Part shown: positions 8,376 through 63,008 of the stretch, piece after piece
Layout of the letters: every line of letters begins with the position of its first letter
Numbering within the stretch: the stretch's first letter is position 1
Source of the DNA: Candidatus Cloacimonadota bacterium
GTDB taxonomy: Bacteria > Cloacimonadota > Cloacimonadia > JGIOTU-2
Assembly (NCBI GenBank): GCA_049903315.1
Contig: JBNGBT010000007.1
Span: forward strand, 6,561 to 70,560
Reading direction: 5' to 3'
Length of the DNA stretch: 64,000 nucleotides
Made by a program: the position numbers and the translations under genes
Notes under the pieces: model-generated
Told to the model about the DNA's origin: nothing
Database searches by the model: none
Seen by the model: only the letters and a program-made list of their open reading frames with translations

Positions 8376-8648
8376 TTAGTAAGTAATCTCAAATGAATCA
8401 TATTCAATTTGTTCCGGGTCTTCTTCAATCGTGATATCATCAATGCGTGCTGCAGGAGGTCCTAATTTAATTTTATCTAAGAAAATTTGCAGATTCGGCG
8501 AATCGCCTTGTGCTTCGATCTCTACATCGCCGTTATACAGATTCTTAGCATACCCATGTATGCCGAAGTGACGTGCATTATATGCAGCAAAATATCGAAA
8601 TGATACGCCTTGTACAACGCCTTTTACAATAATATGTAATTTTCTCAT
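8376..8648 (-). CDS. acyP: Acylphosphatase
   Basis: MRKLHIIVKGVVQGVSFRYFAAYNARHFGIHGYAKNLYNGDVEIEAQG... matches the acylphosphatase fold signature (VxGxVQGVxFR, GxxxN). ATG at 8648 lies 1 nt after the stop of the upstream gene; the listed ORF starts at a TTG further upstream. Confidence 0.85.
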   Translation of the reverse strand: MRKLHIIVKGVVQGVSFRYFAAYNARHFGIHGYAKNLYNGDVEIEAQGDSPNLQIFLDKIKLGPPAARIDDITIEEDPEQIEYDSFEITY

Positions 8649-8649
8649 A

Positions 8650-11556
8650 TTACTCAAAAACAATTATCTGAGGTCGAACGACACCAGCTCGGATCTGGGT
8701 GTGTCCGTTCATATATATTTTTTTATTCTGATATTCTTTAAAGAAATTTTCATAGACGGCATTCATTCTGAAATTGCCAAAACCTTCTGTCAATATTATC
8801 GGAAATGGTATGCTTTCGTTACCTGTGAGAGCAACACCGATCTCCTCTCCAAGAAATTCTACAAGGTCTTTATTATCTATTGATGGTGCGATAACACCTG
8901 CGACATCCTTCTCCGCACATGTTTTCAGGAAGTCATAGGAAATCTTATTGAAGCATATAAGAATTTTATCATGATACGTTGCTTTCTCATATAGAACAGG
9001 TTCATGAAAAATCTGCATATTGCTTGTTCTCTCACTCCCGAATCCTATAATTCCGTTGAGTCGGCTTCCAATATATTGTATGGTTGCGGATAGGTTTTCT
9101 TCCACATCAATTACTTTTCCGCACACATTTGCATAGATACGAAATGGCTCATTCTTGTATTGAATTGTAACTGTGCCCTTATCTGCATCAATGTTTGTAA
9201 TTACTCCGGATGTAGGAGCAGGTATCACATGACTGAAATCCTTTTCAAGACGCGATGCAAGTGGTTCGTATGTTTCTACAAAATCTCCCTCGCGTTTTTT
9301 GAGATATCCTTTGATATGCTTCGGATTTATTTTGAGTTCTTTTGCTATTTTGACCGTAAATGGCTTTGTAGAATAATCCTGGATTTCACGCAATATTATT
9401 GTTCCGGTCTCAAAGTTGATATGTTCGATCTTGCCACGGACAGGTGTTCGATACTCTCCGACTTTACCGGAAAATGCAGAGATCATACCTCGGTCGGAAA
9501 TCTCGATTATTTTTTGATTGAATTTTACCGATTCACCTTCCTTCACAAGCATGCTCTTTTCCATCAGTTCCGGATTGAGATCGAGATAGTCCATTGTGAA
9601 AAGCGAAAGCACGTAAATTTTGGGTGGAGCATATTTATTTTCACCGATGAGAGTATCAGGCGTCACTTCTTCATCTTTTGTAACAAAAATATTTCCTGAA
9701 TAGGGGAGTTCTCTTTTGATCGCATAGGTGCCGGTCTCAATTTTTTTATTTTCTATATATGATGAAAAACACTCCTCGAGAGCTATTGCGGGATTTCCCA
9801 AATCAAAAAGTTTCAACTCGCTATTGTATTGCTTGATGGAAGTATTATCACGAAAACGCGTATCAGCTAATATTGCCTGGTCAGTCTCAAACGTATATTC
9901 ATGATCATTATTTCCCAGAGAAAAGCCCTTTTCCAGATTAATAATAATTTTCTGAAGAGTATTATTTTCGTTTGGAAAATATTTTAATGAATTTGATAGT
10001 ATCGTATGAGATTCGCTTCCAATAATAATTTCCATTACTTTCTGACCGGCTTTCATCTTTTGGAAGATCGGGCGGATGCACATGCCGATTTTTTGATAAC
10101 ATTCTTTATGAAGAAGTTCGGATGCAAGTTCGCTATTCACTTCGCTTAATTTTCCTAAATGAGGTGAAATAAAATGATTGTCGCGCCAGATTTCGGTAAT
10201 TCCTTCTGGTTTGAGTCCATCGCAAATGGTAATTAAAGCATGTGTGCTCGATGGAGCATTTGAGAGCACTCCACCTGCACCTATCATGATGCCGATATCT
10301 TTCATATGAAAGGATCGTTGTTCCTGAAGTTTTTCCACATAGAAGCATTCCAGGAATTTATCAAAATCCGTATGTTTCAATCTGTCGAGGAATCCGATTT
10401 TCTGTGTATTAAAATGCATCTTCATATGATGCCTTATGGACATTTGTATCGCTTCGCGCGCAGTTGCGTGTTCAATAGCTGTTTGGGTATCATCTTGCGG
10501 GATGTAAAGAGGATAGAGCATTTTGTTTGAAATATAATTTCTTATATAGTGCTCATCCAGACTCTCGGGCAGCCATCTTTGAATCTTCTCAAAAGTAGCA
10601 TCTTTCATCACGTTTGAAATACTGTAACTCATCCCATAATTTGCACTTACTGTTCGATAATATTTGCCCATTATGTTTGAGAACACATCCGTTGTTGCAC
10701 CGCCAATATCCACTGAAATGATATTTTTCCCCATTTGTTTGCTTATCAGCCGAAGTGCATTTATAACTCCTGAAGGAGTTGGAATGATAGCGTCAGCAAC
10801 AACCTTTTTCAATGAGCCATAACCCGGTGCCTGCTCCATTACATTATCCATAAAGAGCTGATGTATTTTTTCCTGTGCTGGAGGAAGATTTTCATCCTGC
10901 AGGGTCGGGCGGATATTCGGCACTATGTAGAGTTGAAATTTCTCGGAAAAGAGGGATTGAATGAATGACTGGGCATCTTTGTTGCCGGCATATACAAGTG
11001 GGATTTCGGTTTTATCACCGAATTTTGGTTTTGGGTGTGCTAATGAAAGCAGCTCTCCCATGCGTACGATACTGCTGATATTTCCACCATCTGTTCCGCC
11101 GGAGAATAGAATAATATCAGGTCGCAGTAAGCGTATGAGCTGCATCTTCTCAACAGGAGTCCGGTTATCATTGATCGCAAAAGTATCGAGGATCACTCCG
11201 CCGGAGCCGTACGCAGCACGCTTTGCACTGCTTGCAGAATCAAAAAGTGTGAGACCAAAGACAAGTATCTGCAAGCCACCACCGGCGCTGCTCGTTGTTA
11301 AATAGAGAGTGTCTTTATTAAACCGAAGATTTTCTGAAGTAGAATCTTTATCCAAAAGTTGTATATCAGTGGCTTTTTCTATATTTTGTATGGAGTTGAA
11401 AATGCCGATTTTCACATCTTCTTGTGGACGTTCAACCGTTGTGCCGACATTTTGTAATGCAGTGAGTGTGTAGGACTCACTTCCTTTTTGAAAAAGGACC
11501 GCTTTGGTTGTTGTGCTACCAATATCTGTAATAAGAATATTTTTCTTAGTAATCAT
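8650..11556 (-). CDS. GlmL/MutL-family (hydantoinase-like ASKHA) ATPase fused to a C-terminal partner domain, 968 aa
   Basis: N-terminus ILITDIGSTTTKAV and a second phosphate motif VDIGGATTDVFS (ASKHA). Co-linear homology to the split pair 56503-58401 + 58411-59535 (STSSAGGGLQ, LRPDIILFSGGTDGG, IHQLFMDNVMEQAPGY, RTVSANYGMSYSISNV; C-terminal ILTEGFG, GHTQIRAGVVRPQII). Confidence 0.75.
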   Translation of the reverse strand: MITKKNILITDIGSTTTKAVLFQKGSESYTLTALQNVGTTVERPQEDVKIGIFNSIQNIEKATDIQLLDKDSTSENLRFNKDTLYLTTSSAGGGLQILVFGLTLFDSASSAKRAAYGSGGVILDTFAINDNRTPVEKMQLIRLLRPDIILFSGGTDGGNISSIVRMGELLSLAHPKPKFGDKTEIPLVYAGNKDAQSFIQSLFSEKFQLYIVPNIRPTLQDENLPPAQEKIHQLFMDNVMEQAPGYGSLKKVVADAIIPTPSGVINALRLISKQMGKNIISVDIGGATTDVFSNIMGKYYRTVSANYGMSYSISNVMKDATFEKIQRWLPESLDEHYIRNYISNKMLYPLYIPQDDTQTAIEHATAREAIQMSIRHHMKMHFNTQKIGFLDRLKHTDFDKFLECFYVEKLQEQRSFHMKDIGIMIGAGGVLSNAPSSTHALITICDGLKPEGITEIWRDNHFISPHLGKLSEVNSELASELLHKECYQKIGMCIRPIFQKMKAGQKVMEIIIGSESHTILSNSLKYFPNENNTLQKIIINLEKGFSLGNNDHEYTFETDQAILADTRFRDNTSIKQYNSELKLFDLGNPAIALEECFSSYIENKKIETGTYAIKRELPYSGNIFVTKDEEVTPDTLIGENKYAPPKIYVLSLFTMDYLDLNPELMEKSMLVKEGESVKFNQKIIEISDRGMISAFSGKVGEYRTPVRGKIEHINFETGTIILREIQDYSTKPFTVKIAKELKINPKHIKGYLKKREGDFVETYEPLASRLEKDFSHVIPAPTSGVITNIDADKGTVTIQYKNEPFRIYANVCGKVIDVEENLSATIQYIGSRLNGIIGFGSERTSNMQIFHEPVLYEKATYHDKILICFNKISYDFLKTCAEKDVAGVIAPSIDNKDLVEFLGEEIGVALTGNESIPFPIILTEGFGNFRMNAVYENFFKEYQNKKIYMNGHTQIRAGVVRPQIIVFE

Positions 11557-11595: not shown

Positions 11596-12585
11596 TTAAC
11601 CTTTGAGACCGCTCGTGATAAAGCTGGATATGATCTGCCTTTGTGCAAATAGGAAGAGAATAAGTAGTGGAGCAATGGAGAAAGTTGATGCCGACATGAG
11701 GAGGGCAGTGCTCGAGGACGCCTCCTGTGCGAAGTATGAAAGCCCGACCTGCAGCACACGCAGATTATCACTACTTGTCATTACAAGGGGCCACATGAAG
11801 CTGTTCCAACTCCCGATGAGTGAGAAAATAGCAGTCGTTGCAAGTATTGGTTTGGAGATGGGTAATATGATCCTCCAGAGGATGCCAAATTGAGAGCATC
11901 CATCAATAACTGCTGCATCAAAAAGGTCTTGAGGAATTGTCTTAAACTGTTGTCGCAGCAAGAAGATGCTGAATATATTTGCAATCCATGGCACAATAAG
12001 CGCTTGGTAGGTGTTTATCCAACCGAGTTTTGTAAGCAGGAAATATGAAGGAATGAGATAGATAGGCTGGGGAACCATCATCATACTGATGAACAGGTAA
12101 AAGATGAAATCCCGTCCTTTGAACTTCATACGGGCAAATGCGTATGCTGCAAGAGATGAGGTGATAAGCACACCGATAAGCACAGAAAATGATACAAAAA
12201 GTGTGTTGAGAATATACCTGCCAAAAGGCACTTTTGTAAATGCCTCTTTATAATTATCCCAATGCAATTTCAGTTTTTTGGATGATTTTATACTTTCAGC
12301 AGGAACTTTCACGTAAGATTCTTTGAAGGTTTTACCATCTTTATCATATATATTTATAACAACTTGATTTTCTTCTTCATCAACAATTTCACAAAGCTCT
12401 TTTTTCCCATCATGAGTATAATAATTTACAAAATCAATAGGAATGAATCCCACGCTGCCTTTATTTATTGCAGTTTGTGATTTCAGAGAAGTGGAAACCA
12501 TCCAAATAAACGGCACAACCATGATCAACCCACAGAGGATGAGCATGAAATAAGAGAACCCTTTGCCAAAATATTTTTTAAGCAT
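11596..12585 (-). CDS. ABC transporter permease (MalG/CUT1-like) with a large extracytoplasmic insert
   Basis: Multi-TM protein with a binding-protein-dependent permease EAA-type loop (DAAVIDGCSQFGILWRIILP); overlaps the upstream permease gene by 1 nt. Confidence 0.82.
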   Translation of the reverse strand: MLKKYFGKGFSYFMLILCGLIMVVPFIWMVSTSLKSQTAINKGSVGFIPIDFVNYYTHDGKKELCEIVDEEENQVVINIYDKDGKTFKESYVKVPAESIKSSKKLKLHWDNYKEAFTKVPFGRYILNTLFVSFSVLIGVLITSSLAAYAFARMKFKGRDFIFYLFISMMMVPQPIYLIPSYFLLTKLGWINTYQALIVPWIANIFSIFLLRQQFKTIPQDLFDAAVIDGCSQFGILWRIILPISKPILATTAIFSLIGSWNSFMWPLVMTSSDNLRVLQVGLSYFAQEASSSTALLMSASTFSIAPLLILFLFAQRQIISSFITSGLKG

Positions 12586-13526
12586 CAGTACTGAACCTTT
12601 TTCTCAAGCTGCTTTTGAAGCATGGTCAAACCAAGAATTATAACGAATAGAATAAGAGCTATTGCACTCGCATAGCTGAGATTCTGTGACTCGCCAAAGC
12701 CTATTTCAAAAATATAATACACGATCACTTTTGTTGTTCCCAGCGGTCCGCCGATTGGTGGTCCCGTCATTAAATATACCTGCGAGAAGACTTGAAAAGT
12801 TGTGATGGTCGTCATGAGTAGTACATAGAAAGTTGTAGGGGAAATAAGGGGGACAGTGATTTTAAAAAACTGTTTCCATTTGCTTGCACCATCGATATCA
12901 GCAGCTTCATAATATACTTCCGGAATATTCTGGAGTCCAGCAAGATAAATGATTGTATTATAGCCCAGACTTCTCCAGATACTTACAATTATGATCGCAA
13001 AAAGTGCGAGTGAAGGCCCACCTAATGCTTTTGGTATATTGATGCCCATTGCACCAAAAAGTAGGGTAAAAATTCCTCTTGGTTCGGAAAGCCAATCGAG
13101 TCCATGAATGCTAAAGAAACCAAGTACATGGTTCATCAATCCGCCGTGAGGTGAGAAGATCAGTTTCCAAAGAATTGAGATGGCAACGAGGGATGTGACT
13201 GTGGGGATGAAATATGTTGTTCTGAAGAGACCGGATAGTTTTTTTGTTCTGTTGAGAAGATTCGCAAAGAAAAGTGACAAAACAAGTGTTACGGGCACGA
13301 CAAAAATTACTAGGTAAAATGTATTGATCAGAGATTGCCAGAAACCGGGATCCTGGAAAAGTTTAATGTAGTTTTGGAAGCCGATAAATTTCTCTGGTCC
13401 GTGGATAGTCCATTTGAAAAAGCTAATAATGAAGGAGAGTAATATTGGTATGAAACGGAAAGCGAATACTACAAGAAATGCTGGTAAGATATACCCGAAA
13501 GGGAAATAGCTTTTTTTTGTTCTCAT
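12585..13526 (-). CDS. ABC transporter permease (MalF/CUT1-like)
   Basis: Six predicted TM segments; permease signature YEAADIDGASKWKQFFKITVPL. Confidence 0.85.
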   Translation of the reverse strand: MRTKKSYFPFGYILPAFLVVFAFRFIPILLSFIISFFKWTIHGPEKFIGFQNYIKLFQDPGFWQSLINTFYLVIFVVPVTLVLSLFFANLLNRTKKLSGLFRTTYFIPTVTSLVAISILWKLIFSPHGGLMNHVLGFFSIHGLDWLSEPRGIFTLLFGAMGINIPKALGGPSLALFAIIIVSIWRSLGYNTIIYLAGLQNIPEVYYEAADIDGASKWKQFFKITVPLISPTTFYVLLMTTITTFQVFSQVYLMTGPPIGGPLGTTKVIVYYIFEIGFGESQNLSYASAIALILFVIILGLTMLQKQLEKKVQY

Positions 13527-13544: not shown

Positions 13545-13618
13545 TGGCTGGGGTGCAGGGATTCGAACCCCAATAGGCAGATCCAGAGTCTGCTGTCTTG
13601 CCATTAGACGACACCCCA
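13545..13618 (-). tRNA. tRNA-Gln (anticodon CUG)
   Basis: Reverse complement TGGGGTGTCGTCTAATGGCAAGACAGCAGACTCTGGATCTGCCTATTGGGGTTCGAATCCCTGCACCCCAGCCA; 7-bp acceptor with U1-A72, anticodon stem GCAGA/TCTGC, loop CTCTGGA, T-loop TTCGAAT, encoded CCA. Confidence 0.8.
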
Positions 13619-13630
13619 TGGTTAAAAAGT

Positions 13631-13705
13631 GGCTGGGTCGGGAGGATTCGAACCTCCGAATGCAGGGACCAAAACCCTGTGCCTTGCCGCTTGGCGACGA
13701 CCCAC
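13631..13705 (-). tRNA. tRNA-Gln (anticodon UUG)
   Basis: Reverse complement TGGGTCGTCGCCAAGCGGCAAGGCACAGGGTTTTGGTCCCTGCATTCGGAGGTTCGAATCCTCCCGACCCAGCCA; closely resembles bacterial tRNA-Gln; loop TTTTGGT gives anticodon TTG. Confidence 0.85.
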
Positions 13706-13717
13706 ATTTCTATAAAT

Positions 13718-13809
13718 GGCGGAGAGGCAGGGATTCGAACCCTGGGTAAGATGTTACTCCTACACACGCTTAGCAGGCGCGCACCTTAAGCCAACTCGGT
13801 CACCTCTCC
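13718..13809 (-). tRNA. tRNA-Ser (anticodon GCU)
   Basis: Reverse complement GGAGAGGTGACCGAGTTGGCTTAAGGTGCGCGCCTGCTAAGCGTG...GGTTCGAATCCCTGCCTCTCCGCCA; class II tRNA with a long variable arm; anticodon loop CTGCTAA. Confidence 0.85.
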
Positions 13810-13822
13810 AAAAAGAACAAAA

Positions 13823-13908
13823 TGGCGGAGGATGAGGGACTCGAACCCCCAAGGGCAGAGCCCGGCGGTTTTCAAGACCGCTGCCTTACCAATTAGGACT
13901 AATCCTCC
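13823..13908 (-). tRNA. tRNA-Ser (anticodon UGA)
   Basis: Reverse complement GGAGGATTAGTCCTAATTGGTAAGGCAGCGGTCTTGAAAACCGCCGGGCTCTGCCCTTGGGGGTTCGAGTCCCTCATCCTCCGCCA; anticodon stem GCGGT/ACCGC, loop CTTGAAA, long variable arm. Confidence 0.85.
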
Positions 13909-14045
13909 GTTCTATAATTCTCATATTTAGGGAATTAGGTTGATATAATCCGAAGGGCTCTTCTCAACTGTCAACATTTTCAAAAAAAATTGTATATTTC
14001 CGATTTTGTTGACATATCTGAGCATAAATCACTTTTTCTCACTCT

Positions 14046-26051: not shown

Positions 26052-27695
26052 ATGCATAAAAAGAAATATGAAGATCTTGTAAAGAAGTTAAGAGAGAAAT
26101 ATCCTGAGCGCCAGAAAGAATTTATTACAGGCTCCTCAGAAGAAGTACAACGTCTATATACACCAGAAGATACAAAAGAAATAGATTATGACAGGGATAT
26201 TGGATATCCCGGACTCTATCCTTTCACGCGCGGTGTCCAGCCAACAATGTACAGAGGAAGGTTGTGGACAATGCGCCAGTATGCTGGATTCGGTACAGCA
26301 GAAGAATCGAACCAACGATATAAATTTCTCCTCTCACAAGGTCAGACCGGTTTATCCATTGCTTTTGACCTTTGTACACAAATTGGGTATGATTCTGATG
26401 ATCCGATATGTGTTGGGGAAGTGGGGAAGGTAGGAGTGGCAATTGACTCTCTCGCAGATATGGAAATTCTTTTTGACGGTATCCCACTTGATAAAGTATC
26501 AACTTCTATGACCATCAACGCTCCTGCTGCGATCGTTCTTGCAATGTATATAGCTGTTGCAGAAAAACAAGGCGTCGCACTGGATCAATTAACAGGTACG
26601 ATCCAGAATGATATTCTCAAAGAATACATCGCTCGTGGCACCTATATATTTCCTATAAAACCTTCAATGAGGCTCATCACGAATATTTTTGAGTATTGCT
26701 CGAAACATGTGCCAAATTGGAACACGATCTCCGTATCTGGCTATCATATCAGAGAAGCTGGTTCAACTGCAGCAGAGGAAATTGCATTTACTCTTGCTGA
26801 TGGTATTGCATATGTACAGGCAGCTATAGATGCAGGATTGGAAGTTGATGACTTCGCTCCCCGAATCTCGTTCTTTTTCAATGCTCAGAACGATCTCTTT
26901 GAAGAGGTTGCTAAATTCCGTGCTGCAAGGCGGTTATGGGCGCAAATCATGAAAGACAGATTTCATTCGAATAATCCTAAATCTCAAATGTTACGCTTTC
27001 ATACACAAACAGGCGGCTCTACGCTTACTGCTCAACAATCCGACAATAATATCGTAAGGATCACGATTCAAGCTCTTGCAGCGGTTCTTGGAGGCACACA
27101 ATCCCTTCATACAAACTCACGGGACGAAGCACTCGCGCTTCCTACTGAGGAATCTGTTCGGATCGCACTTCGGACACAGCAAATACTTGGATTTGAAAGT
27201 GGTGTTACAAATACTATCGATCCACTCGCGGGTTCATATTTTGTAGAAAAAATGACTGAAGAAATCGAAAAAAAAGCAAAAAAACACATTCGGCGAATTG
27301 ATGAACTTGGTGGAATGGTTGAAGCTATTGAAAAGGGATATGTACAAAAACAAATCCAGGATAGCGCTTACAAGTATCAGAAGCAGATCGAGAAAAATGA
27401 ACGAATAATTGTCGGAGTTAATAAATTTACTACTGAAAAGGAATCACCAAAAAACTTACTTCGAGTTGATGAAAAAGTTGAACAACTACAAGTTAAAAAA
27501 TTGCACAAGATAAAAGCTCAAAGAGATGAGAAAAAAGTGCATGAAAATCTAGAAAAAATACGTAAAATTTCTCGAACTGAAGAGAACCTCATTCCGTCAA
27601 TTCTCGAAGCTGTGAAGACCTATGCCACTCTTGGTGAAATTTGTAATGTGTTACGTGAGGAATTTGGTGAATATAGCGAACAAATTGTTTTTTAA
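26052..27695 (+). CDS. Methylmalonyl-CoA mutase family, large (substrate-binding) subunit without B12 domain
   Basis: [56 protein letters not shown]; MCM-like Tyr and Arg positions appear retained (alignment by eye). Confidence 0.85.
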
Positions 27696-28124: not shown

Positions 28125-29504
28125 ATGGTTAAATATCCTGTTGAACCGTTTAAAATAAAGATGGTCGAACCCATTAAAATATTGGATAGAGAACAAAGGA
28201 TCAAAAAGATCAAGCAGGCAAAATATAATCTTTTCAATCTAAAAGCTGAGGATATTTTTATCGATCTTCTTACCGACAGCGGAACTTCTGCTATGAGCGA
28301 CTCACAATGGGCTGGTATCATGCGGGGTGATGAATCCTATGCAGGAAGCAGGAGTTATTTGCATTTCGAGCGATCAGTCAAAAATATCTTCGGTTATGAA
28401 AATATCATTCCAACCCATCAGGGAAGAGCTGCAGAAGCAATTTTATTTTCGACTATTCTCAAGCCCGGTGATTATGTGCCAAGCAATATTCATTTTGATA
28501 CCACTGAGGGAAACATACGCAATAATGGTGGAATTCCAGTGGCGTGTGTGATTGATGAAGGATTGGATCCAGCAAGTATTTATCCATTCAAAGGAAATAT
28601 CGATCTTAATAAATTACAAAAGCTGGTAGATGAAGTTGGCGTTGAGAATATCCCAATTGCTATGATCACAATTACCAATAACAGTGGGGGTGGTCAGCCG
28701 GTTTCGTTGGAAAATATCAAACAGGTTTATCATTTTTGGAAAAAACTGAACGTCCCGTTCTTTATTGATGCGTGCCGTTATGCAGAGAATGCGTATTTCA
28801 TAAAGATGAGAGAAAAGGAATACGAAAATTCATCAATTGAAGAAATTGCAAAAGAAATATTTGCGCACGCTGATGGTGCGACTATGTCAGCAAAAAAGGA
28901 TGCATTGGTGAATATTGGCGGCTTTATCACATTGAAAGACAGTGAGCTTGCTCAAAGACTCATAAGCAAACTCATTATCACAGAAGGTTTTAAAACCTAT
29001 GGAGGATTATCCGGACGCGATCTCGAGGCTGTTGCAATCGGTTTACAGGAAGGATTGAACGAAGATTACTTGAGATATAGGATCGAGCAAACTGCATATC
29101 TCGGTGAAAGTCTATTGGAGAAGGGCATCCCAATTGTACGCCCTCCCGGGGGTCATGCGATTTATATCGACGCACTCTCTGTACTTCCAGATATCCCTCA
29201 GAAATATTTCCCTGCACAAGCCCTTGCTATAGCATTGTACATTGAAGGTGGAATACGCGGAGTTGAGATTGGCAGTATCATGTTTGCATATAATGATGAA
29301 AAAACTGGAGAAACCATCTATCCCAAACTAGAACTTGTGCGCCTTGCAATACCGCGCCGTGTATATACGAGAGCGCATCTCGATTGTGTTGTTAAAACTG
29401 TGAAGAAAGTCATGGATAACAGACATCACCTGAAGGGATTACGTATAACTTATCAACCAAAATTACTCAGACATTTTACTGTTGAGTTAGAAGAAATTTC
29501 ATAG
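28125..29504 (+). CDS. tnaA: Tryptophanase / tyrosine phenol-lyase family (PLP beta-eliminating lyase)
   Basis: 459 aa; PLP-lysine context GATMSAKKDALVNIGG matches the TnaA/TPL family; RBS AGGAG. Confidence 0.82.
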   Translation: MVKYPVEPFKIKMVEPIKILDREQRIKKIKQAKYNLFNLKAEDIFIDLLTDSGTSAMSDSQWAGIMRGDESYAGSRSYLHFERSVKNIFGYENIIPTHQGRAAEAILFSTILKPGDYVPSNIHFDTTEGNIRNNGGIPVACVIDEGLDPASIYPFKGNIDLNKLQKLVDEVGVENIPIAMITITNNSGGGQPVSLENIKQVYHFWKKLNVPFFIDACRYAENAYFIKMREKEYENSSIEEIAKEIFAHADGATMSAKKDALVNIGGFITLKDSELAQRLISKLIITEGFKTYGGLSGRDLEAVAIGLQEGLNEDYLRYRIEQTAYLGESLLEKGIPIVRPPGGHAIYIDALSVLPDIPQKYFPAQALAIALYIEGGIRGVEIGSIMFAYNDEKTGETIYPKLELVRLAIPRRVYTRAHLDCVVKTVKKVMDNRHHLKGLRITYQPKLLRHFTVELEEIS

Positions 29505-29512
29505 GACAAAAA

Positions 29513-30742
29513 ATGGGTAAAACAATTGTAGAAAAAATAATTCAGCTCCATTCTGAAGAAGAAGCCGTAGCTGGTAAGATAGTATGGATGAAACTCGATG
29601 TTCGTACTGCCCGTGATTTTGGCGGACCAAATGTGGTTAAAAATTTAGAAAAACACTATCCTGACGCAGAATTGCCGGACAAAGAAAACGTATTTTTTAC
29701 TTTCGATACTGTCGCACCTGCCAAAACAATTCCTTATGCAAATAATCAGCAAATTTGCCGTGAGTTTGCGAACAAGAACGGGCTCAAAGTTTATGATGTG
29801 GATGCAGGTATCGGCACACATATTCTTATGGAAAAAGGATTTGCACGACCCGGCAGAACTCTGGTCGGAACCGACAGCCATTTTAACATTCTTGGAGCAG
29901 TTAATGCTTTTGGACAAGGCATGGGTGATCAGGATATTGCATTCGGATTCAGTACAGGGAGAACATGGTTTGAAGTTCCGGAAACCATAAAAGTAAATCT
30001 TAAAGGCACATTCTCGTATCCTGCCACAGGGAAGGACCTTGTTCTCTACATTCTTAAAAGGATCGGCAGTAAAGGGGCACTTGGCAAATGTATTGAATAT
30101 TATGGTGAGTGCTTGCAGGATTTGACTTTTTCCGATTATATAACTTTGTGCAGCATGATGACTGAAATGGGTGGTATCGTTGCATTTCCCGAGCAAAATG
30201 CTCAAGTCAGTCAATGGCTGAAAGAACGAACAGGCGAAAATCTTCAATTCATTATTGCTGATAATGATGCTCAATATACTGAAGAAATTGAAATCGATGT
30301 TTCGGGATTACAACCTCAAATCGCATGCCCGCCAAAACCGGATAATGTTAAAGATGTTTCTGAACTTAAAGGATTAAAAGTCGGCTCAATTTTTGTGGGC
30401 TCTTGTACGAATGGTCGTATTGAGGATATGCGTTATCTTGCCGATATTCTGAAAGATAATCATGTTGCAGAAGGTATAATGCTTCGAGTCGTTCCTGCCA
30501 CACGAGAGGTTTATGGGCAAATGCTCAAAGAAGGTCTGATAGATATTCTTTTCAACGCCGGTGCTATTGTATCGAATCCGGGATGTGGCGGCTGTGCATC
30601 AGGACAGATTGGTATGACTGGTAAAGGTGAAGTTCAAATCTCTACATCAAATAGAAATTTCAAAGGCAAACAAGGTGATGGTGAAACCTATCTGGCAAGT
30701 CCTGTCACTGCAGCATTTGCCGCAATAAAAGGGGAGTTATAA
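29513..30742 (+). CDS. Aconitase-family hydro-lyase large subunit, archaeal-type LeuC/homoaconitase-like
   Basis: 409 aa; VGTDSHF, Fe-S cysteines in GSCTNGR and NPGCGGC, STSNRNFKGKQG; LeuC-like throughout. Confidence 0.85.
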   Translation: MGKTIVEKIIQLHSEEEAVAGKIVWMKLDVRTARDFGGPNVVKNLEKHYPDAELPDKENVFFTFDTVAPAKTIPYANNQQICREFANKNGLKVYDVDAGIGTHILMEKGFARPGRTLVGTDSHFNILGAVNAFGQGMGDQDIAFGFSTGRTWFEVPETIKVNLKGTFSYPATGKDLVLYILKRIGSKGALGKCIEYYGECLQDLTFSDYITLCSMMTEMGGIVAFPEQNAQVSQWLKERTGENLQFIIADNDAQYTEEIEIDVSGLQPQIACPPKPDNVKDVSELKGLKVGSIFVGSCTNGRIEDMRYLADILKDNHVAEGIMLRVVPATREVYGQMLKEGLIDILFNAGAIVSNPGCGGCASGQIGMTGKGEVQISTSNRNFKGKQGDGETYLASPVTAAFAAIKGEL

Positions 30743-56502: not shown

Positions 56503-58401
56503 ATGGCAAAAGAGCTACGTTCAATATTGGCTACCGACTGTGGTAGCACAACAACGAAAGCCATATTAATTAAGAAAATCGATGATGTATATCGTTTGAT
56601 CGTACGAGGTGAAGCACCAACAACAGTGGAAGCTCCCTTTGATGATGTGACAAAAGGTGTTCTGAATGCGGTCGAAGAAGTTCAGGACCTCGTTCATATT
56701 CGAGGAGAAAAAGATAGGTCTATCATCAAAGATGAAACAATAGAAGTACCTCAGGATGGCGATAAAGGTGTTGATGCATATGTGTCTACGAGCAGCGCCG
56801 GTGGGGGACTTCAAATGATGGTTGCCGGCGTCGTAAAAAGCATGACTGGTGAAAGTGCAGAACGTGCAGCACTCGGTGCAGGAGCTATTGTTATGGATGT
56901 GCTTGCAAGCAATGACAAGCGCCTTCCTCACCAAAGGATCGAAAGAATACGGCATCTGCGTCCCGATATGATACTTCTGTCAGGAGGTATCGATGGGGGA
57001 ACGACCAAGCATGTGGTCGAACTCGCAGAGATTATTGCTGCTGCAGATCCCAAACCCCGTCTTGGATCAGAATACAAATTACCAGTCATCTATGCGGGAA
57101 ACAAGGACGCTCGTGATGCAGTGAAAGAGACACTGGGGAGCAAGGTCGATCTTATCATAACAGATAATATCCGACCTGTGCTTGAAAGAGAAAATCTCGG
57201 ACCTGCGCGTGATAAAATACACGATCTTTTTATGGAGCATGTGATGGCTCAAGCGCCAGGATACAAAAAGCTTATGGCTTGGGCGAGGGCAGAAACAGAA
57301 AACGGAAAAATCGAAGAAGTGCCTATCATGCCTACACCTGGAGCTGTCGGAAACATCATGCAGACAATTGCGCGGCTGGAAAACATCGAGGTCGTGGGTG
57401 TGGATATCGGCGGAGCTACAACTGATGTCTTTTCGGTGTTCTCTGAGGATAAAGTATTCAACAGAACAGTAAGTGCAAACCTGGGAATGAGTTATAGTAT
57501 TTCAAACGTGCTCGCTTCGACAGGTATAAAAAATATTTTACGCTGGGTGCCTTTCGATATTCCGGAAACTCAACTGCGTAATATGATCAAAAATAAAATG
57601 ATCAGGCCTACCACGATTCCTTTCCTTGCAGAAGAACTTATGCTGGAACAGGCAATCGCAAAAGAAGCGCTTCGTCTTGCTTTTGAACAGCATAAAGAAT
57701 TTGCCGTTACTCTGAAAGGCACACAGAGAGAAAGAGAAATTTCTGAAGCATTCTCGCAATCAACATCAGGTGAAACAATTGTAAATATGATGACTCTTGA
57801 TATATTGGTTGGCAGCGGTGGTGTACTTTCTCACGCACCTCGAAGAAACCAGTCTGCGATGATGATGATCGATGCATTTCTTCCCGAAGGCATCACACGC
57901 CTTGCGGTTGATAGTATATTCATGATGCCGCAGCTTGGTGTACTGTCAACGATCAGTGAAAAGGCAGCACAAGAAGTATTTGAAAGAGATTGTCTTATCC
58001 ATCTAGGAACCTGCATCGCGCCAAAAGGTAAGTATAAACAAGGTAAAACAGCGCTTAATGCGAGGATCGAACTGCCAAATGGAGAGATCTACGAAGAGAG
58101 TATCCCGTTTGGAGAGATCGTCAGATTGAATCTTGGTGTTGGTGAAAATGCAAAAGCAATTTTAAAACCATCAAGTGGATGCGATCTTGGTACAGGGAAG
58201 AATACTGAAGTTGAAACTACGATTTCTGGTGGTGTTGTTGGTATTATTATTGATACTCGCGGAAGAGAATTGTATTTTGATGAAAAGCTGAACAAAGAAA
58301 CAATGAGCGCTCATATTCCATCGGATAATGCAGCACGAGTCGAATCGTTGAAAAAGTGGATGAAAGCTCTCGAAGTCTATCCCCAAGAATGGTTATCATA
58401 G
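56503..58401 (+). CDS. GlmL/MutL-family (hydantoinase-like ASKHA) ATPase, 632 aa
   Basis: RBS GGAGG; ILATDCGSTTTKAI and VDIGGATTDVFS phosphate motifs; paralog of the N-terminal two-thirds of 8650-11556. Confidence 0.75.
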   Translation: MAKELRSILATDCGSTTTKAILIKKIDDVYRLIVRGEAPTTVEAPFDDVTKGVLNAVEEVQDLVHIRGEKDRSIIKDETIEVPQDGDKGVDAYVSTSSAGGGLQMMVAGVVKSMTGESAERAALGAGAIVMDVLASNDKRLPHQRIERIRHLRPDMILLSGGIDGGTTKHVVELAEIIAAADPKPRLGSEYKLPVIYAGNKDARDAVKETLGSKVDLIITDNIRPVLERENLGPARDKIHDLFMEHVMAQAPGYKKLMAWARAETENGKIEEVPIMPTPGAVGNIMQTIARLENIEVVGVDIGGATTDVFSVFSEDKVFNRTVSANLGMSYSISNVLASTGIKNILRWVPFDIPETQLRNMIKNKMIRPTTIPFLAEELMLEQAIAKEALRLAFEQHKEFAVTLKGTQREREISEAFSQSTSGETIVNMMTLDILVGSGGVLSHAPRRNQSAMMMIDAFLPEGITRLAVDSIFMMPQLGVLSTISEKAAQEVFERDCLIHLGTCIAPKGKYKQGKTALNARIELPNGEIYEESIPFGEIVRLNLGVGENAKAILKPSSGCDLGTGKNTEVETTISGGVVGIIIDTRGRELYFDEKLNKETMSAHIPSDNAARVESLKKWMKALEVYPQEWLS

Positions 58402-58410
58402 GAGGTTCAC

Positions 58411-59535
58411 ATGGCACAAGCATATACTCCCGGATTGACAATAACAAAAAGTATTATTCTGAGAAAAGATAGAATCCTTCCTCTCAAAGGTGAAGTTGTG
58501 GTAAAAGTAGGGGACAAGGTCACTGCAGATGACAATGTCGCAAAAACCGATTTACCAGGTGACGTTATCGCAATCAATATCGGCAATAAACTCGGAGTCC
58601 CGCCCTCTGATGTTTTGTCAAAAATGCAGAAAAAAGAAGGTGAAAAAATAAAAAAAGATGAACCTCTCGCAATGAGCCAGAGTATGTTCGGTCTTTTTAA
58701 ATCTATTGTGAAATCACCGATTACCGGCACAGTCGAGAATATTTCGAGTATCACAGGACAAGTTCTTCTTCGAGAACCTCCGGTCCCAATAACCGTGAAA
58801 GCATTTATTGATGGCGTCGTCAGCAAGGTTTATGAAAATGAAGGCGTCCAGATAGAGAATAAATCTGCCTATATACAGGGAATCTTCGGCATTGGTGGTG
58901 AGATTACTGGTGAAATCAAAGTTCTTGTTGATGGACCAGATGCCGAACTCCTGCCTGAACAGATTGATAATTCATGTAAGGATAAGATCATAGTGGGCGG
59001 TTCTATGGTGCGCCTGCCGGCTATTAAGAAAGCAATTCAAGTTAATGCAAAAGGCATTGTTATAGGCGGTATTGATGACCAGGATCTTAAAGACCTGCTT
59101 GGCTATGATATCGGTGTTGCAATAACCGGACATGAGGAGATTGGGTTGACTCTCGTTCTCACAGAAGGTTTTGGCCCAATTAAAATGGCTGCAAAAACGT
59201 ATGAAATATTAAAAGAATTCGAGGGTTATAAGACTTCCATGCACGGCAAAACCCAGATCAGAGCCGGTGTGATGAGACCAGAGATAATTATTCCAATTCC
59301 ATTTAAAGAAGAAGAGTTGAAAGCCAAAGAGAAAGAAATCTCAGGACTGAAAATTGGTAGTATAATTCGAATTATCCGAGAACCTCATTTCGGAGAGATC
59401 TGTGAAGTGACGGCACTTCCCGAAGAACTTGTTGTAGTTGAATCTGAAACAAAAGTGCGTGTACTCAAGGCAAAAATGGACGATGGCATTGAAGTTACAG
59501 TTCCACGTGCAAATGTTGAAGCTATTGAAGATTAA
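58411..59535 (+). CDS. Partner protein of the GlmL-like ATPase (homologous to the C-terminal third of the 968-aa fusion)
   Basis: RBS GGAGG; shares VLTEGFG and GKTQIRAGVMRPEII with the C-terminus of 8650-11556. Confidence 0.65.
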   Translation: MAQAYTPGLTITKSIILRKDRILPLKGEVVVKVGDKVTADDNVAKTDLPGDVIAINIGNKLGVPPSDVLSKMQKKEGEKIKKDEPLAMSQSMFGLFKSIVKSPITGTVENISSITGQVLLREPPVPITVKAFIDGVVSKVYENEGVQIENKSAYIQGIFGIGGEITGEIKVLVDGPDAELLPEQIDNSCKDKIIVGGSMVRLPAIKKAIQVNAKGIVIGGIDDQDLKDLLGYDIGVAITGHEEIGLTLVLTEGFGPIKMAAKTYEILKEFEGYKTSMHGKTQIRAGVMRPEIIIPIPFKEEELKAKEKEISGLKIGSIIRIIREPHFGEICEVTALPEELVVVESETKVRVLKAKMDDGIEVTVPRANVEAIED

Positions 59536-62366: not shown

Positions 62367-63008
62367 ATGAGTATCATCTGTCAAAACCTCACCTTTAGTT
62401 ACTCAAAGAAAACATCCAATCCTCGACTTATTGAAAATTTCGATTTAGAGTTGAAAAAACAAGATACACTATGTCTTTACGGCGGAACCGGTTCAGGAAA
62501 AACAACTCTATTCAATTTATTCTTTAGAATATTAGAACCAGTAAAAGGAAAAATTCTCATTGATACTATGTCATTGCATAAAGAAAAAAAACTATCCGAC
62601 AAAGTTGCATTTCTGTTTCAGGATTCGGAAAGACAATTTGTTTTCCCGTCGATAAAAGATGAATATGATTTTTTAACAAATCAAAATGAGAATATAAATA
62701 TCACACAAAATATCAGAGAGTTATGCGAAATATTCAATGTAAAAATTGGAGATCTTTTTAATAATGATATATATGAACTCTCTATGGGTGAACTCCGATT
62801 GCTTCAGATCATTTTTTCCTTTTCTGCGAATACAGAATATTTGATTGTTGATGAACCTGGAGATCATCTCGAGGATAAACTTCGCAATAAATTATTCGAT
62901 CTCATAAAATCAACCAACAATAAAGGAATACTGATCCTTACCAAATATCCGGATTTGTATGATGCTGTTGCTAATACGAGTATTCCTATTAATTCAAGAC
63001 ATACATGA
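62367..63008 (+). CDS. ABC-type ATPase-like protein (short, degenerate motifs)
   Basis: Walker A GGTGSGKTT, signature-like LSMGELRLL, Walker B LIVDEP; only 213 aa and no clear H-loop. Confidence 0.55.
   Translation: MSIICQNLTFSYSKKTSNPRLIENFDLELKKQDTLCLYGGTGSGKTTLFNLFFRILEPVKGKILIDTMSLHKEKKLSDKVAFLFQDSERQFVFPSIKDEYDFLTNQNENINITQNIRELCEIFNVKIGDLFNNDIYELSMGELRLLQIIFSFSANTEYLIVDEPGDHLEDKLRNKLFDLIKSTNNKGILILTKYPDLYDAVANTSIPINSRHT

What the first reader, a model, noticed from the sequence alone, without database searches (positions are those of the whole stretch)
11596..13526. ABC permease pair with no ATPase or binding-protein gene nearby
Two CUT1-type permease genes overlap by 1 nt, but the expected ATPase and solute-binding protein genes are absent; tRNAs lie upstream and the GlmL-like fusion downstream. 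The 11596-12585 permease carries a ~100-aa extracytoplasmic insert.
Basis: seen in the sequence. Interest (0 to 1): 0.22.

Follow-up and report, generated by a model that had tools for sequence, protein, structure and literature searches.

The report
Sugar-type ABC permease pair, partners elsewhere
These are the two membrane subunits of an ordinary sugar-type ABC importer in a Cloacimonadota bacterium, and in this whole phylum the ATPase and binding-protein genes sit elsewhere in the genome, so their absence here is normal.

Summary
On the minus strand, 12585-13526 (313 aa, UgpA/MalF/SugA-like) and 11596-12585 (329 aa, UgpE/MalG/SugB-like) are two BPD_transp_1 permeases. They overlap by one base (TGATG). 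Four tRNA genes lie 18 nt upstream, and a 968-aa GlmL/MutL-family fusion lies 40 nt downstream.

No binding protein or importer-type ATPase is encoded in the window or 10 kb beyond either end.

This is not peculiar to the locus:
- The pair is conserved (58-97% identity) in 80 further Cloacimonadota species-level genomes.
- It is always a stand-alone two-gene unit with changing neighbours.
- It is under strong purifying selection (dN/dS about 0.03).
- Both ATPase-docking EAA motifs are intact.

A published analysis of ten Cloacimonadota genomes, including a sister species at 93% identity, lists the matching ATPase and binding protein on other contigs. In relatives outside the phylum the operon is permease-permease-binding protein, again without an ATPase.

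The "insert" is really about 50 extra residues inside a 97-residue periplasmic loop. It is predicted to form a small SH3-like beta-barrel. That loop varies from under 50 to 575 residues among relatives.

Verdict: an ordinary CUT1 transporter core with unlinked partners. Interest is low. The partners in this particular genome were not located directly.

The parts
13945..13974 (-). Promoter-like site (TTGACA-18-GATTAT) upstream of the tRNA cluster. It is the only such site ahead of the co-directional tRNA-permease block.
   Evidence: consensus scan only; function is inferred
13545..13908 (-). tRNA cluster Ser(tga)-Ser(gct)-Gln(ttg)-Gln(ctg). It is co-directional with the permease genes and ends 18 nt before them.
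   Evidence: The same layout occurs in 10 related species. No terminator-like site lies between the tRNAs and permease 1.
12585..13526 (-). Permease 1, 313 aa, the UgpA/MalF/SugA-like membrane subunit of a CUT1 type I ABC importer.
   Evidence: Orthologue lies directly upstream of permease 2 in 83 of 84 loci. dN/dS 0.025-0.034.
12849..12908 (-). EAA coupling-helix motif of permease 1 (residues 207-226, EAADIDGASKWKQFFKITVP).
   Evidence: E207, A208, D212, G213 and A214 are invariant in 78 orthologues.
11596..12585 (-). Permease 2, 329 aa, the UgpE/MalG/SugB-like membrane subunit. It overlaps permease 1 by 1 nt.
   Evidence: dN/dS 0.019-0.033.
12271..12438 (-). Extra segment in the periplasmic TM1-TM2 loop of permease 2 (residues ~50-105), predicted to form a five-stranded SH3-like small beta-barrel.
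   Evidence: The segment is variable in sequence but present in all 27 aligned orthologues.
11860..11919 (-). EAA coupling-helix motif of permease 2 (residues 223-242, DAAVIDGCSQFGILWRIILP).
   Evidence: D223, A224, A225, I227, D228, G229, C230, L236 and P242 are invariant in 27 orthologues.
8650..11556 (-). Context only: a co-directional 968-aa GlmL/MutL-family fusion 40 nt downstream. It neighbours the pair only in the closest clade.
8376..8663 (-). Context only: the acylphosphatase gene that ends the co-directional block.
   Evidence: In L019 and L022 it follows permease 2 directly.

Best explanation
The two genes encode the heterodimeric membrane core of one CUT1-family (TC 3.A.1.1) type I ABC importer for a sugar, oligosaccharide or polyol-phosphate.

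Proposed mechanism:
- Permease 1 (MalF/UgpA/SugA-like) and permease 2 (MalG/UgpE/SugB-like) form the translocation pathway.
- A dimer of a MalK/MsiK/MsmX-type ATPase, encoded elsewhere in the genome, docks on their EAA coupling helices and supplies the energy.
- A periplasmic SBP_bac_1/8-type binding protein, also encoded elsewhere, delivers the substrate.
- The ~50-residue SH3-like beta-barrel in the first periplasmic loop of permease 2 is an accessory element on the face where the binding protein docks. It is not a substitute for the binding protein.
- In this clade the pair appears to be transcribed together with the upstream tRNA-Ser/Gln cluster and the downstream GlmL-like fusion and acylphosphatase genes.

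Shown here: family, topology, conserved motifs, purifying selection, phylum-wide stand-alone layout, and out-group operon layout.

Inferred: the identity and location of the ATPase and binding protein in this genome, the substrate, the role of the loop domain, and co-transcription.
For: Family and fold:
- PF00528 in both proteins.
- Best NCBIfam hits are UgpA/MalF and UgpE/MalG.
- Best solved-structure hits by sequence are SugB, AlgM2 and MalG, and by fold SugB, MalG and AlgM2.

Dependence on an ABC ATPase: the EAA-x3-G-x9-I-x-LP motifs are intact and nearly invariant in both subunits.

The genes are functional:
- dN/dS is 0.02-0.03 against four relatives.
- Orthologues at 58-97% identity occur in 80 species-level Cloacimonadota genomes.

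Unlinked partners are the norm:
- In 84 distinct loci the two genes stay together.
- No MalK-type ATPase lies within 10 kb of any of them.
- No third gene family accompanies them in more than 22 loci (Pfam tables).

Partners exist elsewhere in the phylum. Williams et al. 2021 (PMC8542988), Table S3, lists these permease orthologues for ten Cloacimonadota genomes. One is Ca. Celaenobacter antarcticus on contig Ga0208771_1000422, the contig of L018, which is 93% identical. The same table lists a ~364-aa ATPase and a ~430-aa binding protein on different contigs.

Ancestral layout: the nearest out-of-phylum relatives have permease-permease-SBP_bac_1/8 operons and no ATPase within 10 kb. These are Riflebacteria L097, Spirochaetota L098, and unassigned L099 and L101, at 40-52% identity; L097 and L098 carry a loop insert of the same size.

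Precedent: the B. subtilis multitask ATPase MsmX energises several sugar ABC operons that lack an ATPase gene (PMC5730181).
Against: - The ATPase and binding protein of this particular genome were not located. The tools reach only 10 kb beyond known proteins.
- In the published table a binding protein is listed for only 5 of 10 genomes. Two of the genomes without one are 91-97% complete.
- A profile of out-group binding proteins returned no hit labelled Cloacimonadota among its best 120.
- The scores to every named equivalog (UgpAE, MalFG) are far below the cut-offs, so the substrate is unknown.
Confidence: 0.8

Rival explanations
1. The pair works without a dedicated binding protein or with an unconventional partner. 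The SH3-like loop domain of permease 2, or some non-canonical periplasmic protein, would take over substrate capture. This would explain why no binding-protein gene is ever linked in this phylum.
For: - No binding-protein gene lies next to the pair in any of 84 Cloacimonadota loci, although out-group operons carry one.
- A binding protein is listed for only 5 of 10 published genomes.
- The loop domain is conserved in presence across the phylum.
Against: - A ~55-residue beta-barrel is far smaller than any ABC binding domain. It is poorly conserved in sequence: 41% mean column identity, with 3 invariant and 4 near-invariant (>=90%) columns.
- The same insert occurs in Riflebacteria and Spirochaetota homologues that do have an adjacent binding protein.
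- Five published genomes do list a binding protein.
- Incomplete metagenome-assembled genomes explain the gaps more simply.
Confidence: 0.07
2. The pair is functionally tied to the downstream GlmL/MutL-family fusion and acylphosphatase. For example, it could import the substrate of a pathway that these proteins serve.
For: - The genes are co-directional with 40-nt spacing and no terminator between them.
- The order permease-permease-fusion is kept in nine related loci: L015-L018, L020, L021 and L023-L025.
Against: - The fusion is absent next to the pair in all loci below ~73% identity, and in L019 and L022. The exception is a partial 41% match directly downstream of the pair at the contig end of L057.
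- Neighbours elsewhere are unrelated: TMEM260-like, VTT domain, His_Phos_1, transposases.
- A split paralogue of the fusion lies 44 kb away in the same window with no transporter nearby.
Confidence: 0.08
3. The pair is a decaying remnant of an operon that lost its ATPase and binding-protein genes.
For: Only the absence of partner genes in the window.
Against: - dN/dS is 0.02-0.03.
- Reading frames are full length in nearly all of 84 species.
- Functional motifs are invariant.
Confidence: 0.02

Closest known systems
LpqY-SugABC trehalose importer of mycobacteria (PDB 7cad, 8hpm, 8ja7)
   Same: It is the best solved-structure match by both sequence and fold for permease 2: SugB, E 3e-21, about 24% identity. 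It shares the type I importer membrane fold, six TM helices and the EAA motif.
   Different: SugB is 274-278 aa and has no ~50-aa beta-barrel in the TM1-TM2 loop. In mycobacteria all four genes lie in one operon. The substrate here is unknown.
E. coli MalFGK2-MalE and UgpAEC-UgpB (CUT1 archetypes)
   Same: They share the family, the pairing of a MalF/UgpA-like with a MalG/UgpE-like subunit, and the EAA motifs.
   Different: Scores are far below the NCBIfam equivalog cut-offs (125 versus 335 bits for UgpA, 120 versus 297 for UgpE). Permease 1 lacks the large P2 loop of MalF. The extra domain sits in the P1 loop of the MalG-like subunit instead. The partner genes are unlinked.
MsmX- or MsiK-dependent sugar importers of Bacillus and Streptomyces (e.g. 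AraNPQ, YesOPQ)
   Same: The operons lack an ATPase gene and are energised by a shared ATPase encoded elsewhere (PMC5730181; MsiK from general knowledge).
   Different: Those operons keep their binding-protein gene. In Cloacimonadota the binding-protein gene is unlinked as well.
'Multiple sugar ABC transporter' of Ace Lake Cloacimonadota (Williams et al. 2021, PMC8542988, Table S3)
   Same: These are direct orthologues. L018 (Ca. Celaenobacter antarcticus, 93% identity), L031 (Ca. Tenebribacter mawsonii) and L044 (Ca. Zophobacter franzmannii) are the very contigs listed there. Permeases, ATPase and binding protein are on separate contigs.
   Different: None in kind. That paper gives only a gene table. 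It does not describe the loop domain, the tRNA linkage or phylum-wide conservation.

Membership tests
Type I ABC importer membrane subunit (BPD_transp_1, PF00528) | Pfam PF00528 domain above the gathering score | tested here: met
   61.9 and 60.2 bits against a cut-off of 26.4.
Type I ABC importer membrane subunit (BPD_transp_1, PF00528) | EAA-x3-G-x9-I-x-LP coupling-helix motif in the cytoplasmic loop | tested here: met
   Permease 1 has EAADIDGASKWKQFFKITVP and permease 2 has DAAVIDGCSQFGILWRIILP. The core residues are invariant in 78 and 27 orthologues respectively.
Type I ABC importer membrane subunit (BPD_transp_1, PF00528) | Six TM helices with the N-terminus inside the cell | tested here: met
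   Permease 2 shows six hydropathy peaks and a basic N-terminus (3 K/R in 12 residues). The AlphaFold2 helices agree and the fold matches MalG and SugB. Permease 1 shows five peaks at the chosen threshold, with the sixth below it.
CUT1 family (TC 3.A.1.1) | Closest characterised relatives are CUT1 subunits, and the genes occur as an adjacent MalF-like plus MalG-like pair | tested here: met
   UgpA/GlcT/MalF and UgpE/MalG/GlcU are the top NCBIfam hits. SugB, AlgM2 and MalG are the top PDB hits. The genes overlap by 1 nt.
CUT1 family (TC 3.A.1.1) | Cognate SBP_bac_1/8 binding protein | not testable with these tools
   Absent from the window plus 10 kb on each side. Present directly downstream in out-group operons. 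Listed on other contigs in 5 of 10 published Cloacimonadota genomes. The rest of this genome could not be read.
CUT1 family (TC 3.A.1.1) | MalK/MsiK-type ATPase partner | not testable with these tools
   None in the window or in 84 related loci. Listed on other contigs in 9 of 10 published genomes.
UgpAE sn-glycerol-3-phosphate permease (NCBIfam equivalogs NF007852, NF008210) | Score at or above the equivalog cut-off | tested here: not met
   125.5 versus 335 bits and 120.4 versus 297 bits. The pair should not be named UgpAE.

The most novel reading that the evidence does not exclude
Cloacimonadota keep a single, strongly conserved CUT1 permease pair that has lost any dedicated binding protein. 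It would work with only a shared ATPase. The SH3-like loop domain of the MalG-like subunit, or another periplasmic factor, would take part in substrate capture. In the Celaenobacter-like clade its expression would be hard-wired to a tRNA operon. This would be a binding-protein-independent type I importer fixed across a phylum.
Probability: 0.05. Interest if true: 0.5.

Novelty: already known. Interest (0 to 1): 0.12.

Why it matters
It matters little beyond annotation. The result shows that a "missing" ATPase and binding protein next to CUT1 permeases is the normal gene layout in Cloacimonadota. In the wider subfamily only the ATPase is missing. Such pairs should therefore not be scored as incomplete or degenerate transporters in metabolic reconstructions.

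Three descriptive points may be useful to transporter specialists:
- The tight, conserved linkage to a tRNA cluster.
- The small beta-barrel in the first periplasmic loop.
- The very wide size range of that loop among relatives.

Tried and rejected
- Looked for any ABC ATPase in the window by motif and by Pfam and NCBIfam. Only a 213-aa ECF/exporter-like protein lies 49 kb away. I rejected it as the partner: no MalK-type C-terminal domain, a degenerate signature motif, and different best hits.
- Extended the view 10 kb past both window ends. Only exporter-type fused ABC genes turned up.
- Looked for a conserved third partner gene around 84 orthologous loci by all-against-all clustering. None was found. 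A 363-aa ATPase in L066 proved to be a GlnQ-type amino-acid system next to a fused binding-protein/permease gene.
- Tried to reach the Cloacimonadota binding protein with a profile of two out-group binding proteins and by inspecting ten lower-ranked hits. These hits were unnamed or belonged to other lineages with permease-permease-binding-protein operons. None was attributable to Cloacimonadota.
- Pfam finds no known domain in the 100-575-aa loop inserts of larger relatives. The idea that these inserts are embedded binding proteins therefore has no support.

Full report
**What is there**

The finding lies on the minus strand.
- ORF 12585..13526 encodes a 313-aa protein and ORF 11596..12585 a 329-aa protein.
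- The stop of the first and the start of the second share one base (cagtacTGATGctt).
- Each protein has a single BPD_transp_1 domain (PF00528; 61.9 and 60.2 bits, cut-off 26.4).
- The best NCBIfam hits are UgpA/GlcT/MalF for the first and UgpE/MalG/GlcU for the second. This makes a MalF-like plus MalG-like pair of the CUT1 family. The scores are far below any equivalog cut-off, so no substrate name is justified.
- By sequence the closest solved structures to permease 2 are SugB, AlgM2 and MalG. An AlphaFold2 model (mean pLDDT 71) matches the same chains by fold.

**Surroundings**

- Four tRNA genes (Ser-tga, Ser-gct, Gln-ttg, Gln-ctg) lie at 13545-13908 on the same strand.
- The last tRNA ends 18 nt before the permease-1 ATG, and that spacer holds an AGGAG ribosome-binding site.
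- A promoter-like site (TTGACA-18-GATTAT) sits just upstream of the tRNAs at 13974-13945. No terminator-like site separates the tRNAs from the permease.
- Forty bases downstream of permease 2 starts a 968-aa MutL/GlmL-family protein, followed by an acylphosphatase gene.
- The window comes from contig CAZGZB010000001.1 (784 kb) of assembly GCA_964530025.1. Close homologues are labelled Cloacimonadota or Cloacimonetes.

**Are partner genes really absent?**

- No LSGGQ-type signature occurs in any frame of the 64 kb.
- The one ABC_tran protein (62367-63008, 213 aa) is 49 kb away. It resembles ECF-type and exporter ATPases, not MalK/MsiK.
- None of the larger ORFs hits SBP_bac_1 or SBP_bac_8.
- tblastn with two cognate out-group binding proteins finds nothing in the window.
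- Gene tables for 10 kb beyond each end of the window add only two fused exporter-type ABC genes.
- The absence therefore holds over 82.5 kb of the contig.

**Is this a local oddity?**

No.
- A scan of one genome per species found 546 loci encoding relatives of permease 2. The best 80 are at 58-97% identity. All but four carry a Cloacimonadota/Cloacimonetes label; three are labelled 'uncultured bacterium' (L039, L072, L087) and one Armatimonadota (L052).
- Across 84 distinct loci, permease 1 lies directly upstream of permease 2 in 83.
- Only six ABC ATPases of any kind occur within 10 kb of the pair. None is MalK-like: they are exporters, a Znu-like protein and one GlnQ-type.
- No other gene family accompanies the pair in more than 22 loci.
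- Pfam-annotated neighbourhoods of four divergent genomes show quite different neighbours and no binding protein or ATPase.

**Are the genes functional?**

- dN/dS against four relatives is 0.019-0.034, with dS of 0.6-1.7.
- The EAA-x3-G-x9-I-x-LP coupling-helix motifs are intact in both subunits. Their core residues are invariant in 78 and 27 orthologues respectively.
- These helices are where the ABC ATPase docks in MalFGK2-type importers (established knowledge of the family). An ATPase partner is therefore expected.

**Where are the partners?**

I could not read the rest of this genome. Three lines of evidence bear on the question.

First, published gene tables. Williams et al. 2021 (PMC8542988) tabulate, for ten Cloacimonadota genomes, a "multiple sugar ABC transporter".
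- Its permeases are these orthologues. For Ca. Celaenobacter antarcticus they are genes 17 and 18 of contig Ga0208771_1000422, the contig of locus L018, which is 93% identical.
- Its ~1.1-kb ATPase gene and ~1.29-kb binding-protein gene are on other contigs.
- The ATPase is listed for 9 of 10 genomes and the binding protein for 5 of 10 (completeness values).

Second, the nearest relatives outside the phylum.
- They are at 40-52% identity.
- They sit in permease-permease-binding-protein operons (SBP_bac_1/SBP_bac_8, 390-451 aa) with no ATPase within 10 kb.
- The examples are Riflebacteria L097, Spirochaetota L098, and two unassigned lineages L099 and L101.
- An unlinked ATPase is therefore the rule for the whole subfamily. 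Cloacimonadota have additionally separated the binding-protein gene.

Third, precedent. ATPase-less sugar ABC operons served by a shared ATPase are well documented, for example MsmX in B. subtilis (PMC5730181).

**The insert**

- Hydropathy places TM1 at residues 13-31 and TM2 at 129-147. The loop between them is 97 residues, highly charged, and follows a basic cytoplasmic N-terminus. It is therefore periplasmic, as in MalG.
- Alignment to SugB shows that only residues ~50-105 are extra. The offsets to UgpE and MalG (47 and 40 residues) agree.
- AlphaFold2 predicts five beta-strands there, both in the whole protein and in the isolated segment (pLDDT 80-90 in the core).
- The segment is present in all 27 aligned orthologues but varies in sequence, and three orthologues have further insertions in it.
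- It also occurs in the Riflebacteria and Spirochaetota homologues that have an adjacent binding protein. It therefore does not replace the binding protein.
- Among the 150 best representative relatives the TM1-TM2 gap ranges from 8 to 575 residues: 49 below 50, 28 at 50-99, and 64 at 100 or more. The large inserts have no Pfam match.
- The loop is thus an insertion hot-spot in this subfamily, and the Cloacimonadota version is a modest one.

**Clade-specific layout**

- The tRNA cluster directly upstream and co-directional is conserved in ten related species (L016-L025), with tRNA-to-permease gaps of roughly 18-180 nt. It is absent in more distant Cloacimonadota.
- The GlmL-like fusion follows the pair in nine loci of this same clade. 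In L019 and L022 the acylphosphatase follows the pair directly. Outside the clade the only trace is a partial 41% match at the contig end of L057.
- This argues for operon neighbourhood rather than a functional tie with the transporter.

**Conclusion**

This is an ordinary CUT1 transporter membrane core. Its partner genes are unlinked, which is normal for its phylum and, for the ATPase, for its whole subfamily. It is already catalogued in the literature for sister species.

One point stays open: whether every genome with the pair has a CUT1 binding protein. The published table lists one in only half of the genomes, and my profile search did not surface a Cloacimonadota binding protein. That leaves a small probability for a binding-protein-independent mode.

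Noticed in passing
window 8650-11556 (-), 56503-58401 (+), 58411-59535 (+): The 968-aa MutL/GlmL-family protein downstream of the permeases is a fusion of two genes that also occur split elsewhere in the window. One is a 632-aa GlmL-like protein (39% identity over 515 aa). The other is a 374-aa protein of unknown family (31% identity over the C-terminal 248 aa), with only a sub-threshold Biotin_lipoyl hit.
   Followed up: partly
window 13545-13974 (-); L016-L025: A Ser-Ser-Gln-Gln tRNA cluster ends 18 nt before the permease-1 start codon, with no terminator between them. The same co-directional layout is kept in ten related species. This suggests a tRNA-mRNA co-transcript.
   Followed up: partly
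P0126-P0270 (relatives of permease 2): MalG-like permeases of this subfamily carry periplasmic TM1-TM2 inserts of up to about 575 aa. In 13 of the representatives above 650 aa the gap is 410-575 aa. Named members of two such clusters (P0130, P0142) are labelled Thermotogota. The ten scanned had no Pfam match in the insert.
   Followed up: partly
L010, L026, L027, L028, L037: In several Cloacimonadales genomes roughly 0.7-0.9 kb separates permease 1 from permease 2. In L010 (the same contig as L027) the gene table shows a 220-aa His_Phos_1 (histidine phosphatase) gene filling this gap. The other loci were not annotated.
   Followed up: no
P0108, P0111: Two orthologues of permease 2 are named 'ribokinase' in NCBI records of Cloacimonadota and Cloacimonas genomes. 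This looks like a misannotation.
   Followed up: no
window 62367-63008 (+) and L095 10639-18129: A 213-aa ABC ATPase without a canonical LSGGQ signature is followed by a 1201-aa TPR protein and two fused exporter-type ABC genes just beyond the window end.
   Followed up: no
window 26052-27695, 28125-29504, 29513-30742: Methylmalonyl-CoA mutase, beta-eliminating lyase and aconitase-family genes lie together, in a genome with two GlmL-like (mutase-reactivase-type) genes. This fits an amino-acid or organic-acid fermenting lifestyle.
   Followed up: no
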